From NCBI RefSeq assembly GCF_035594765.1, contig NC_085842.1, forward strand, positions 9,175,256 through 9,239,255: a stretch of 64,000 nt of DNA. The letters are read 5' to 3'. Numbering within the stretch: position 1 is the stretch's first letter; every line of letters starts with the position of its first letter. The DNA comes from Anolis carolinensis. Lineage: Eukaryota. The notes beneath the pieces were generated by a model. That model was given only the letters and a program-made list of their open reading frames with translations, was not told the origin of the DNA and did not search any database. Of the stretch, positions 1,407 to 61,204 are shown piece after piece. Both the position numbers and the translations under genes were made by a program.

Positions 1407-2021
1407 TAACCTGCACCTTTAATTTGGCCCAGAAACTTTTGGAAACTTTTTCAGTTTCAATTGTCCTTCTTTGGGGGCCACTAGAGAATTCTTCATGATA
1501 GTATTCACTTGATCTAGCTTGTTGTTGGCACTATCGATTAATCCATTCAAAATTTCCACTGGTTTCATAACTTCTATATGTTTATCCAATATCTTATTAT
1601 GTTGTTTTCCTTTCTCCATTTTAGGAGTTTTCAACTGAACATTGGATTTGTTATGTAACCACTTTCATCCAATAGATGTCATATTGTGATAAGTTTTCAA
1701 ATAAATGTCTTTTCTAAACAAGCTCCTCTATTTGGCAATGCTTCAGGAAGATGTTTTGACTTCTGTTCAATTCAAGGTCTCACTGAAAAATCTTCCTTAT
1801 TTCCTTTCTCTTTTCTCTCTAATCCAGAACATTACAAATCACGATTGCATTGGGACTGTACCTATTTCGTCACAAGAAGAACTTCACTTTATCTTCGATT
1901 TCAAAATTTGAGCTTCCCCATTCATTCTTGTTTCTCCTCTTTCTTCCTTTTCTGTTTTCAGAGTTACCTCTTTGTCTTTGTCTATAACAGATTTCATATG
2001 CAATAGGGTAACAGTGTAAAT

Positions 2022-2140
2022 CAATGTTTCTCAACCAGGGGGTCGGGACCCCTGGGTAGGTCACCAGGGGGATGTCAGAGGTGTTGTCAAAGACCATCAG
2101 AAAACACATATTTCTGATGGTCTTAGGAACCCCTTTGGCA
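2022..2140 (+). mobile_element. hAT-type MITE left-end fragment (paralog at ~28700-28820)
   Basis: CAATGTTTCTCAACC terminus resembles the CAGTGG..CTCAACC TIRs of other MITEs here; contains a 14-bp internal palindrome AAGACCATCAGAAA...TTTCTGATGGTCTT. Confidence 0.5.
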
Positions 2141-2187
2141 GTCCTTGTGAATGTGATCAACAAATTCTCTGGTTAATTGGGGGACTA

Positions 2188-3868
2188 ATTATTTATTTAT
2201 TTATTTATTTATTTTATCAGACTTGTATACCGCTACTCCCAGTTTGGCTCAGAGCGGTTTAAATTAAATTAAATAAATTAAAACAATACACTTAGCTTTA
2301 AAATAACAATAAAAACAGACATAGCCCCATGTTTTTCACCCATCGAAAGCTTGTCGGAAGAGCAAGGTTTTGCAGGCTTTCCAAAAGGCAAGTAGGCCTC
2401 GGATAGTTCGAGTTTCAACTGGCAAGGCATTCTATAAATGAGGGGCTACAATCGAGAAGGCTCTCTGCCTAGTAGAAGACAAATGATAAGTCCGTATGTT
2501 AGGGACTTCAAGCAAATTTTGGTCTTTGGACCGAAGTAATCTCTGGGGTTGGTAGGGGGATAAGCGGGCCCTCAGGTACGCCGGCCCCAAACCATGTAAG
2601 GCCTTAAAGGTTAGTACCAGTATCTTGAAAGTAATCCGGTACTCAATCGGTAGCCAGTGCAGCTGTTGTAGAATTGGGGTGATACGCCACCTCGCCGGCA
2701 CCCCGGCGAGAAGACGGAGCCGCCGCGTTTTGCACCAGCTTTAGTTTCCGGATCACTGACAGAGGAAGGCCAATGTAGAGGGCGTTACAGTAGCCGAGCC
2801 TCAAGATGACCGTCGCCTGGATCACCGTAGCCAGGTCGTTCCTAGATAGGTAGGGAGCCAGTCGCCTAGCCTGACGTAGATGGAAAAACGCAGATCTGCT
2901 CACAGCAGAGACCTGGGCCTCCATTGTGAGCAGAGGGTCCAATAAGACACCAAGACTTTTTACAGAAGATGACGGACGCAGTGTCTCGCCATCCAGGGTA
3001 GGCAGCTGCATCTCCCCCCCACCCGGACGGCCCAGCCAAAGGATCTCCGTCTTCGCTGGATTCACCCTCAACCTGCTGGCACGCAATCATCCAGTAACGG
3101 CCTCAAGGCACTGATGGAAACTATCGGGTACGGAGTCCGGCTGGCCCTCCATCCTCAGAATAAGCTGAGTGTCATCAGCGTACTGGTGGCACTCGAGCCC
3201 AAAACTCTGCACCAGTCAGGCAAGCGGTCGCATATAGATGATAAATAATAGAGGAGAGAGAATAGCTCCCTGTGGGACCCCACAAGTTAGCGGAGACCAC
3301 GCGGAAACCATCCCTCCCCTCACCACCCGCTGTCCCTGATTCTGGAGGAAGGAGGACACCCATTTAAGGGGTATCCCCCTAACCCCCGTCATGGCTAGGC
3401 AGTGGGTCAATAGATTGTGATCGACCGTATCAAATGCTGCTGTGAGATCCAATAACACAAGCAGCGCTGATCCGCCTTGATCCCTTTGGCAGCGAAGCTG
3501 ATCTGTGATGGCAACTAGCACAGTCTCCGTCCCGTGCCCCCTACGGAAGCCGGACTGGAAGGGATCAAGTCCGGCTGTACGATTGAGGAACTGCTGCAAC
3601 TGTTCCGCTGCTGCCCTCTCAACCACCTTGTCCAGAAACGGAAGATTCGAGACTGGGCGGTAGCTAGGGGAACCGAACGATCCAAGTCTGGGCTCTTCAG
3701 CAGCGGAGATACCATCGCCTCTTTTAAACCCTCTGGAAAAACTCCTTGCTCAAGGGAGCTATTTATTATATTCAACAGAGGTTCCCGTAATCCCTCCAGG
3801 CAAGATTTTACTAGCCAGGAGGGACACGGATCGAGGGAGCAGGTGGTCGGCCTAGTTGCAGTCATCTG
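2188..3868 (-). mobile_element. L2 LINE, 5'-truncated, frameshifted RT
   Basis: RT motifs in shifted frames (FQSGFRRGHGTET, LDLTAAFDTV, GVPQGAILSPLLF, LHWLPIEYRITFK) and a (TAAA)n tail. Confidence 0.9.
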
Positions 3869-58588: not shown

Positions 58589-58703
58589 CCGGCAAGGCGG
58601 CAGCCCCGTCTCCTTCCCGCTTCAGCTCCTTCTGCCTGAGACTCTGGGTGGTGTCTGGTGGAGATTCCTCTGGTGCAGGGACTTCCATGGAGTTATTATG
58701 GGC
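58589..58703 (-). CDS. Gene B2 post-SCAN linker exon (115 bp)
   Basis: ttccag|AHNNSMEVPAP...ALPG|gtgaga. Confidence 0.77.
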
Positions 58704-59038
58704 CTGGAAGAGCACAGAGCATTCCAGAAGGAGTTTGGAAAAAGTTCAGAAATATCACAGACCTCTAGACCTTTTTGGAAAGAATAACTCTGAGATGGCA
58801 ACCTAGTTTGGAACCAATGCCCCCCCCCCCCTCCCATCATTGTCTATGTTCTATCTTGAGCAGAGCATCAACCAAGCTGAGGGTAGAGATGGAGGGGCAG
58901 AGCAGGTGGGGAGAGAGGCCGAGGGAGCAGGGCCTTGCTCATCCCCCACATCGGTCCCATCTTGGAAGAAAGGCAGGATGCAAGCTTAACCTGTCCATCA
59001 GCCCCCAGGTTAGTGAAACCCAGAGGGAATGCTCTCAC

Positions 59039-59428
59039 CTGTCCTTCCTGCTCCTTGTCCTCGGCCCGACTCAGGAGGAAGCCTTCCGCCAGGGCCACCG
59101 CCTGGGAACAGGTCTCTGCCCCACACTCTCGGACCCAGCTCCCCATCTCTGGGGGCAGGATGCTCAGGAACTGCTCCAGGGTCACCAGGTCCAGCAACTC
59201 GGCCTTGGTGTGCTGCTCTGGCTTCAGCCACTGGCGGCACAGATCGTGGAGACGACTGCAAACCCCTCTGGGTCCTTCACCCTCTTGGTAGGAGGATTGC
59301 CTGAAGCGCTGGCGCTGTGTGTCCGAGCTGTCAAGGTCCACACTCAGGGACTCATGTCTGGTTCTTTCCCAGGATTCCCCACTGCCCCCAGGTCCTGCTT
59401 CAGGCCCACGTGAGTTGGGTCTCTCCAT
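59039..59428 (-). CDS. Gene B2 SCAN-domain exon
   Basis: SCAN motif RQRFRQ...[30 protein letters not shown]; 390 nt; donor CAG|gtgaga. Confidence 0.9.
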
Positions 59429-61204
59429 GTTGGAACCACTCTGGTGAAGAACCCAACAGTATCCAAGATGCTTTTCCTTCCTCTCCTTTCTTTCAAGGGA
59501 AGGAAATCCCTCCACAGGCTCTACTCCGAAATTCTCAGCCAAAAATCACATTTCCTCTGTGAAAGAAAGGCAGAAAGGTTGTGGGACCAGGCTTTTGAGC
59601 AATAGTAGCAGCAGAAATGACAACTATATGATCCAAGGTATAATGAAAGACCGCGTTTGGACTTGAAATGTATATTTATAAAGGTTTGAATGTAATTTAA
59701 TTTAAATGGAATTTTGAAATGTGATTGTAGTTGTTTGATATATTTGTTTCATATTGTAAGCAGAACCAACTGCTACAGACAAAAAACAAGCCAGCTGGGA
59801 AGCTGCATCAATTTCTTCTGAAAGATTTTACAATTGATGAAGAAATTAAAAAACCTATGATTCAGTGGGTGAAAAGTCTAGGCTGAGCAATAAGTCCACG
59901 AGAATGGGAAGAGCTCTGGTAAAAATGACTAAAATTTACAAGGAGTCACACAATTAAATAAAATTTCAACAAAATGATACATAGATGGTACATAACTCCA
60001 GAAAAACTCTCAAATACACACACACACACATGATATGTTGGGACTTGCCCAAATTCTAACGAATTCTGAATAAAAATCCACACAGACATGGAAACTATTC
60101 TAGAGTACAAAATCCCATTAAAACCATAACTTTTTCTACTGGGAAACATCAAGAAAGGCTCTTTCTTTATATGACAACAGAACCAAGAACTGAATACGCA
60201 AAACTATGGAAACAACAAGACATGCCAACACCAGAAAACTGGATGACAAAAGGTTTTGAAATGGCCAAATAGGACAAACTAACTTTAGCTGTACAACAAA
60301 CAAATACACAGAAACTTCCAAGAAGAATGGAAGCCATTCATTGAATTCACAAAGCAAAGGAAGATGGCCACAGCAGGATCTGTTGACTAAAATATTATTA
60401 ATAGTATACAGTTACATTTTGTACTATTTCTGAACTCTTTATTCAAGAGACTTTGAATAATTGACCTATCAGCACTCTTTGATTAGAACACAAAAGGTTG
60501 CGAGCCTTGTTAATTAGGTATTTTAGAGCGACAACATATATATTAATACATATTTGTGTAGTGTTTAAATAAAAGAAGATAACAATGTAACATAGTGAAT
60601 TCTTACCCACACAATCCTAATTTACTAACTAATGGAATTGATAGTTTAGATCCATATGGCAGTCGTTATGATATGAAATACATGCAAAGAACTGGAAAAG
60701 AAGGCGGGAAGGAGAGTGGATAGTGTGGGAAGGCAAAGTCCTGAGGACAAGAGTGCATTTGTTTCTGTCACAGAGGACATTTGGATCTTCCAAAACTTTA
60801 GACACTGTCTATAATACTAGGGCTTGGGTTAAAGAGATCGATGTAAAAGCTATAACAAAGACAAGGCTCCTCTTCCCCCCTCCACCCCCTTCCTTTTCCT
60901 CATGATACAGAAGACATTGATATAGTTCTTTTAAAAAATATAGACACCCCTTGTTATACAGCAGATGCATAATATTCAATATTCAAAACAATTCTACAAT
61001 ACATTTTTGCATCCACTGTTATTTTCACCCATATATATATATATATATTATCCCATACCACCGTGTGTCCCCCCCCCCCAAAAGCAATTTCTTTGATACC
61101 TCATCTGTCCCAAATTTCGTTTCCTCTTGTGGAGGTCATTCTCCATCCCTCCATCTCAGGCCAGGAAGGAAGGAGTGAGAGATGGAGGCGGGACACACAA
61201 ATAA

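What the first reader, a model, noticed from the sequence alone, without database searches (positions are those of the whole stretch)
1983..60890. Duplicated two-gene cassette: effector-less hypervariable ZNF paired with a SCAN-KRAB-ZNF on shared promoters
Seen: the unit of amplification is a gene pair (A +, B -), convergent within a unit and divergent across the CpG island between units. Non-coding flanks stay near-identical while both finger arrays have been rewritten and B1 has lost KRAB. Inference: a co-regulated module in which DNA-binding specificity and effector content diversify quickly (ZF-only competitor, KRAB repressor, SCAN-only modulator), possibly against the young retroelements inserting in the same locus.
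Basis: partly seen in the sequence, partly recalled or inferred. Interest (0 to 1): 0.7.

Follow-up and report, generated by a model that had tools for sequence, protein, structure and literature searches.

The report
Lizard zinc-finger array with headless genes
In a green anole lizard, this window is two repeats of a megabase-long zinc-finger gene array in which SCAN-KRAB genes sit back to back with several kinds of finger-only genes; the finger-only genes keep sound, fast-changing DNA-reading parts, but the pairing is likely a by-product of copying a shared promoter, not a repressor-and-competitor module.

Summary
The duplication, both gene types, the reshuffled finger arrays and B1's KRAB deletion are real and are not a haplotype artefact. 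But the window is only two repeats of a 1-Mb tandem array (35 finger-only arrays, 22 SCAN-KRAB finger exons) in Anolis carolinensis. The A+B 'cassette' is not fixed. Of 24 B starts, 22 face a finger-only gene across a CpG island, but it is A in only 9 (C 11, D 2). Finger-only genes also multiply without B elsewhere on the chromosome. A, C and D share no fingerprint with B, which argues against competition for B's sites. KRAB loss is rare (2 of 22), and B's KRAB departs from two residues needed for TRIM28 silencing. What holds up is a large effector-less family (73 start sites on this chromosome) with conserved zinc ligands (pN/pS about 0), diversified contact residues (1.6-1.7) and fingers reshuffled family-wide. 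Targets, translation and co-expression are untested. The scan reported the same arrangement before on another piece of this genome (e1-9960105). Verdict: a new variant of known ZNF-cluster evolution.

The parts
4864..6791 (+). A1 coding exon: non-coding 5' part, ATG 5145, 548 aa, 19 C2H2 fingers, no effector
13547..14652 (-). B1 zinc-finger exon (9 fingers)
16815..19562 (+). Non-LTR retrotransposon (endonuclease + RT) in the B1 intron, absent from unit 2
22766..22844 (-). 3' remnant of the B1 KRAB-A exon after a 537-bp deletion (Pfam KRAB positions 16-40)
23713..25361 (-). B1 SCAN exon (ATG 25361) and linker exons 24641-24524 and 23783-23713
27350..28400 (.). CpG island between B1 and A2; holds B-type first exon (contigs 27521-27769) and three CRE-like + CCAAT modules (27545, 28131, 28238)
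29024..30433 (-). LINE fragment in the A intron, shared with unit 1 (2340-3900), so older than the duplication
31522..33784 (+). A2 coding exon: ATG 31802, 660 aa, 23 fingers, no effector
40007..41112 (-). B2 zinc-finger exon (10 fingers)
42240..47650 (-). Full-length LINE with open ORF1 (GDSL esterase) and ORF2 (CR1-type by recall) in the B2 intron
48004..53317 (+). LTR retrotransposon, open 1596-aa gag-pol, two identical 300-nt LTRs, in the B2 intron
56239..56365 (-). B2 KRAB-A exon (Pfam 58.9 bits), variant at TRIM28-contact residues
57611..59428 (-). B2 SCAN exon (ATG 59428) and linker exons 58703-58589 and 57681-57611
62450..62950 (.). CpG island upstream of B2 with two CRE-like + CCAAT modules; faces a C-type finger-only gene beyond the window (C2:9242763)

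Best explanation
The window is two repeats of a megabase tandem array in which SCAN-KRAB zinc-finger genes sit back to back with finger-only genes of four subfamilies; the pairing likely persists because a block with one two-way promoter was copied, while unequal recombination likely reshuffles fingers and selection likely acts on each family separately. Shown: the layout, the partner counts, open frames, the pN/pS pattern and mosaic flanks. Inferred: non-allelic recombination and gene conversion as the mechanism; that the finger-only genes are translated from their conserved ATG and bind DNA without an effector (OZF-like, by occupying sites); that B acts mainly through SCAN dimerisation, not TRIM28; that B1 is one decaying copy whose exon-skipped product would be a 191-aa SCAN-only protein.
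For: Array of 35 finger-only arrays (A 18, C 12, D 4, E 1) and 22 B finger exons in 1.064 Mb. Head-to-head partner of 24 B SCAN starts: C 11, A 9, D 2, none 2; tail-to-tail neighbour of 22 B finger exons: A 15, C 3, D 2, E 1, none 1. Of 10 recent duplication chains, 6 hold B with C and none holds B head-to-head with A. In C2:1.69-1.89 Mb, 9 of 11 finger arrays carry the finger-only start signature, beside 1 SCAN and 0 KRAB hits. No fingerprint is shared with B by A (0 of 298 fingers), C (0 of 205) or D (0 of 55). pN/pS at zinc ligands 0.00-0.10, at contacts A 1.70, B 3.37, C 1.60, D 1.69. Fingers are as alike between genes as within (A 0.901 vs 0.906). Four-gamete incompatibility in the A 5' flank rises from 7 of 41 site pairs under 50 bp to 30 of 55 over 500 bp. 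KRAB lost in 2 of 22; the copy of B1 on contig C29 has also lost the start of SCAN.
Against: The head-to-head layout is very regular (22 of 24 in the main array, 4 of 4 in C2:8.66-8.86 Mb) and survives partner divergence to 66-80% identity, which selection for co-expression could also explain. A genes whose island still serves an intact B start have longer in-frame arrays than those without (9 vs 8 genes, medians 19 vs 8, Mann-Whitney p=0.0014; counts entered by hand; copies are not independent). One of 24 A-versus-B Mantel tests was positive (A 5' flank vs B 3' UTR, r=0.38, p=0.002), and two abutting chains do carry an A and its tail-to-tail B together. Translation of A is not shown and its 5' exon part holds upstream ATGs. 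pN/pS among converting fingers is not a formal test of positive selection.
Confidence: 0.68

Rival explanations
1. A selected two-gene module: the shared promoter couples a finger-only DNA reader to a SCAN(-KRAB) protein, and the two act together on the same elements, either as partners or as competitor and repressor.
For: 22 of 24 B starts face a finger-only gene; a CRE-like + CCAAT module lies in 35 of 47 islands, always oriented towards the finger-only gene; B-type first exon maps inside the island; paired A genes have longer arrays.
Against: No shared fingerprints; partner subfamily is interchangeable; finger-only genes multiply without B; A has no SCAN or other domain to contact B.
Confidence: 0.17
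2. The finger-only genes are transcribed pseudogenes of former KRAB-ZNF terminal exons, kept open only by youth and gene conversion.
For: 8 of 35 arrays are broken by a stop, frameshift or lost ATG; upstream ATGs precede the start; none of 3 exact ORFs tested is in the protein collection; no clean splice into A was seen in 4 runs.
Against: Zinc-ligand pN/pS 0.00-0.01 in A, C and D with degenerate fingers included, and 0 stops in 477 internal finger units; 34 of 35 keep an in-frame ATG with at least 6 fingers, in a strong start context conserved across subfamilies whose 5' exon parts are full of indels.
Confidence: 0.12
3. The two units are mis-assembled haplotypes of one locus.
For: The assembly does hold redundant versions of this region: C29 and C52 match parts at 99.5-99.9% and break collinearity around window 12-15.7 kb, and C2:420-473 kb matches the whole window at about 98.5%. 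Read depth could not be checked.
Against: More than 20 distinct units lie in one stretch without assembly-size gaps up to 10.13 Mb; 19 of 19 A array pieces differ; the A-B-A-B order with the same KRAB deletion recurs at C2:424-469 kb, and C29 carries B1 next to A2 and B2.
Confidence: 0.03

Closest known systems
Young mouse Chr4 KZFP cluster (PMC12575710; passages read)
   Same: Expansion by segmental duplication of multi-gene blocks, strain- or haplotype-specific fingerprint arrays, young retroelements inside the cluster, recombination between copies.
   Different: Here more than half of the genes have no effector and alternate head to head with SCAN-KRAB genes; the passages read describe no such pairing.
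SCAN-KRAB zinc-finger proteins expanded in squamates (bioRxiv 2025.03.03.638093, abstract and first third of Results read; PMC3971581, passages read)
   Same: B has SCAN-KRAB-ZF order. The lizard KRAB consensus lacks the MLE leucine, as B does, and most human SCAN-KRAB proteins do not bind TRIM28. An older lizard assembly gave 240 SCAN-KRAB and 723 ZNF-only models.
   Different: No binding data exist for these lizard genes; those ZNF-only counts include fragments, whereas here the finger-only structure is shown gene by gene.
Human ZNF146/OZF (PMC8896011; passages read)
   Same: Finger-only protein without KRAB; binds LINE-1, and its loss did not derepress L1 in HEK293 cells.
   Different: OZF is described as highly conserved with 10 fingers; here dozens of fast-reshuffling paralogues with 6-25 fingers.
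Zebrafish FiNZ-ZNF family (PMC10547256; passages read)
   Same: Lineage-specific mass expansion with selection on base-contacting residues.
   Different: FiNZ genes have an N-terminal domain exon and knockdown evidence for TE repression; A/C/D have about 17 residues before the first finger and no functional data.
PRDM9 finger minisatellite (PMC5519329; passages read)
   Same: About 90% identical 84-bp fingers with diversity at contacts: P = 0.55 (A1), 0.44 (A2), 0.51 (B1), 0.55 (B2) against 0.46-0.57 listed for snake PRDM9.
   Different: No SET, SSXRD or KRAB in A; exchange runs across a gene family, not only within one array.

Membership tests
SCAN-KRAB zinc-finger genes (B) | SCAN, KRAB-A and terminal C2H2 array spliced in frame | tested here: met
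   B2 602 aa; 16 of 22 array copies are full with at least 5 fingers; matching splice joints in RNA-like contigs. Not met for B1.
TRIM28-recruiting KRAB repressors (B) | [quoted passage not shown] | tested here: inconclusive
   Placed by hand on the residue numbers quoted in PMC9753469: D8, V9, F13, E17, W18, L21, M33, E35 kept; Y29 is H and N36 is M in all 20 whole KRAB exons. Binding itself not tested.
KRAB-ZFP (A, C, D, E) | KRAB exon in frame with the fingers | tested here: not met
   In-frame stop shortly before the ATG in the same exon in 34 of 35 (the 35th lacks the ATG); no KRAB motif near A in six frames.
Bidirectional-promoter gene pairs | Divergent 5' ends in one CpG island | tested here: inconclusive
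   Island between B and its partner in 22 of 24; B-type first exon lies in the island; A's transcription start was not mapped.
Bidirectional-promoter gene pairs | Co-expression of both genes | not testable with these tools
   Only assembled contigs without strand or level were available.
Transposon-targeting ZNF families | Diversifying change at positions -1, 2, 3, 6 with conserved framework | tested here: met
Transposon-targeting ZNF families | Binding to and control of transposons | not testable with these tools
   No ChIP data; no binding predictor available.
PRDM9 | SET (PR) domain with KRAB-SSXRD | tested here: not met
   Pfam finds only finger families in A1 and A2, and SCAN/KRAB/fingers in B.

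The most novel reading that the evidence does not exclude
The finger-only genes form a combinatorial DNA-reader library of 70 or more genes that works without any effector domain: family-wide finger swapping builds new long specificities from about ten finger types, selection keeps those that cover young repeats or transposons, and the shared promoter supplies a SCAN protein in the same cells to fix chromatin at those sites. It would be a PRDM9-like diversifying system in a lizard in which PRDM9 was not detected (PMC5519329).
Probability: 0.13. Interest if true: 0.75.

Novelty: new variant of a known kind. Interest (0 to 1): 0.38.

Why it matters
Effector-less polydactyl ZNF genes are usually taken to be either old and conserved or fragments of KRAB genes. 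Here a young, large family lacks an effector yet shows the selection pattern of transposon-chasing KRAB genes. If translated, it tests directly whether DNA occupancy alone is enough to be selected in the ZNF-transposon race. The paired layout itself is probably ordinary, and the region warns that gene counts here are inflated by redundant contigs.

Tried and rejected
Mantel tests of shared genealogy between neighbouring A and B: 1 of 24 positive, but the positive control failed for halves of the A flanks (r about 0; 2 of 6 controls passed), so the null result is not used as evidence. Sequencing runs: no holder is on record as RNA and only contigs were available; depth, strand and co-expression could not be read. 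Where contigs covered a B1-specific 6-bp deletion (25295), all carried the other allele in 4 of 4 runs; contigs drop rare variants, so this says nothing on B1 silence. One search showed no GT-AG joint into A in 4 runs; one joint entering at A2's acceptor from a repeat was seen in 1 of 4 runs (weak). Homologue search with A1's first 60 residues returned only generic finger proteins; exact look-up found 0 of 3 ORFs; so conservation of the finger-only family outside this species is untested. The idea that A's non-coding exon part is a relic KRAB-ZNF spacer: in A the frame after the acceptor runs on to the fingers with 4-5 stops, but not in C, D or E, so it stays an inference. No complex or structure prediction was run. 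Literature: searches listed no paper on this cluster or on head-to-head finger-only/SCAN-KRAB pairs; the library lacks most subscription papers, and no supplements were read (those of PMC3971581 may list these loci).
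Full report
Observation. Self-comparison gives collinear direct blocks from 1983-27517 to 28661-60889: 95.5% and 96.6% for the long A-side flanks, 82-94% for B-side blocks, with unit-specific insertions between them. A1 and A2 are single-exon ORFs of 548 and 660 aa with 19 and 23 fingers. An in-frame stop lies two codons before the ATG in the same exon, so no upstream exon can add an effector through the acceptor at 4864/31522. B2 splices SCAN, two linker exons, KRAB-A and a finger exon into 602 aa. 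B1 has a 537-bp deletion that removes the KRAB acceptor and 16 codons. Skipping the remnant would stop at the first codon of the finger exon (191 aa, SCAN only); using the AG made at the junction would give 585 aa with half a KRAB and 9 fingers, but that AG has no pyrimidine tract. SCAN hits of 95-99% identity name Anolis carolinensis.

Context. I fetched 1.064 Mb around the window. It holds 35 finger-only arrays in four subfamilies (A 18, C 12, D 4, E 1; three further split array pieces were set aside), 24 SCAN exons, 20 whole KRAB exons and 22 B finger exons. A 34-base signature ending in the finger-only ATG occurs 105 times in the assembly (control 0); 73 of the 100 listed are on C2.

Assembly. 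The units are not two haplotypes: more than 20 differing units lie in one run. The assembly does hold redundant versions. C29 matches window 15.7-25.1 kb and 27.5 kb onward at 99.6-99.9%, C52 matches up to 11.9 kb at 99.7%, and both diverge around 12-15.7 kb. C2:420-473 kb repeats the whole window at about 98.5%, with the same KRAB deletion but without the 11-kb LINE + LTR insertion and with different A arrays and a 14-finger B1. Whether that copy is an allele or a paralogue is open.

What is the unit? Of 24 B SCAN starts, 22 face a finger-only gene across one CpG island: C 11, A 9, D 2. Of 22 B finger exons, 15 have A as tail-to-tail neighbour. Nine of 19 A loci have their nearest upstream neighbour as an intact B start. 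Among 10 duplication chains of at least 12 kb at 97.5% or more, 6 hold B with C, 1 C with A, 2 B alone and 1 A alone; that last abuts a B chain. In C2:8.66-8.86 Mb 4 of 4 B genes are again head to head with a finger-only-type gene, but in C2:1.69-1.89 Mb 9 of 11 arrays carry the finger-only signature beside one SCAN hit and no KRAB hit.

Finger evolution. With degenerate fingers included, pN/pS (gene bootstrap) at contact residues is A 1.70 (1.51-1.86), B 3.37 (2.92-3.94), C 1.60, D 1.69; at zinc ligands 0.00, 0.10, 0.01, 0.00 (15 junctions with non-84-bp spacing, first and last fingers left out). One search gave similar values but its core invariance was built into the search pattern. Ten fingerprints make up 76% of 260 A fingers, identity within and between genes is equal (0.906, 0.901), and all 19 A array pieces differ in order. 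Four-gamete incompatibility rises with distance in 4 of 5 flank segments, so paralogues are mosaics and near-identical flanks need no functional constraint. 27 of 35 finger-only arrays are fully open and 34 keep an ATG with at least 6 fingers; 16 of 22 B genes are full with at least 5 fingers. Some frameshifts may be sequencing errors.

The three proposed roles. Competitor: A, C and D share no four-residue fingerprint, nor any -1/+3/+6 triple, with B (0 of 298, 205 and 55 fingers), and their finger DNA is only 58-61% like B's. Different residues can read the same bases, so this lowers rather than excludes competition. Repressor: B's KRAB scores 58.9 bits but has His for Tyr29 and Met for Asn36, both listed as required (PMC9753469, passages); the lizard consensus lacks the MLE leucine (PMC3971581, passages) and most human SCAN-KRAB proteins do not bind TRIM28 (bioRxiv 2025.03.03.638093). 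SCAN-only modulator: possible for B1 and one other copy (2 of 22), but the C29 version of B1 has lost the SCAN start as well and the array holds other truncated B pieces, which fits decay.

Expression. Contigs from runs guessed to be RNA show B-family splices: SCAN to exon 2 and exon 2 to exon 3 in 3 of 4 runs, island exon to SCAN in 1 of 4, and loose ends matching exon 3-KRAB and KRAB-finger joins in 1 of 4. These cannot be assigned to a copy. Evidence for A splicing is weak (see Tried and rejected).

Retroelements. The LTR element has identical LTRs and at least 40 identical LTR copies on C1 alone, and it is missing from the sister copy: it is young and inserted after duplication. Nothing here shows that A or B binds it. 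In mouse, such elements are proposed to drive recombination in clusters and to be multiplied by it (PMC12575710, passages).

Results against my reading. The layout is very regular; paired A genes have longer arrays (p=0.0014, non-independent copies); 1 of 24 Mantel tests links A with the neighbouring B 3' end. I give the by-product reading 0.68, a selected module 0.17, pseudogenes 0.12, artefact 0.03.

Novelty. Block duplication, finger reshuffling and variant KRABs are known from ZNF clusters. The less usual part is a young, large effector-less family under KRAB-like selection, interleaved with SCAN-KRAB genes. My searches listed no description of it, but the scan noted the same pairing on another piece of this genome (e1-9960105). 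New variant of a known kind; interest 0.38.

Noticed in passing
window 48004-53317: LTR retrotransposon with an open 1596-aa ORF and identical LTRs; at least 40 identical LTR copies on C1 among 1059 candidates: a currently amplifying family.
   Followed up: partly
window 42240-47650: Full-length LINE with both ORFs open; copies of 97-99.5% identity recur in the array; absent from the sister copy at C2:461 kb.
   Followed up: partly
window 27545, 28131, 28238, 62565, 62669: CRE-like + CCAAT module, 2-3 copies per island, in 35 of 47 islands, always oriented towards the finger-only gene.
   Followed up: partly
window 11400-12900 and 37900-39400: GA-rich tandem repeat between the 3' ends of A and B, differing in length between units.
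   Followed up: no
G000 C29, C38, C52, C83 and C2:0-0.75 Mb: Three or more assembled versions of the same neighbourhood with different finger arrays and breakpoints; gene counts in this region are probably inflated, or the array is structurally polymorphic within one animal.
   Followed up: partly
G000 C2:9661000-9664103: A C-type gene with a 1110-aa ORF whose array includes tandem blocks of degenerate fingers.
   Followed up: no
G000 C2:9339759: A D-type finger exon inserted in inverted orientation right beside an island, between a B start and an A gene.
   Followed up: no
window 24807-25424 and 58868-59545: The SCAN exon frame stays open about 65 codons into the next intron; a 250-aa annotated SCAN-only isoform of a paralogue uses this (P0202), so SCAN-only products need no KRAB loss.
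   Followed up: no
G000 C2:525349: A second, independent partial KRAB deletion that also removes exon 3.
   Followed up: no
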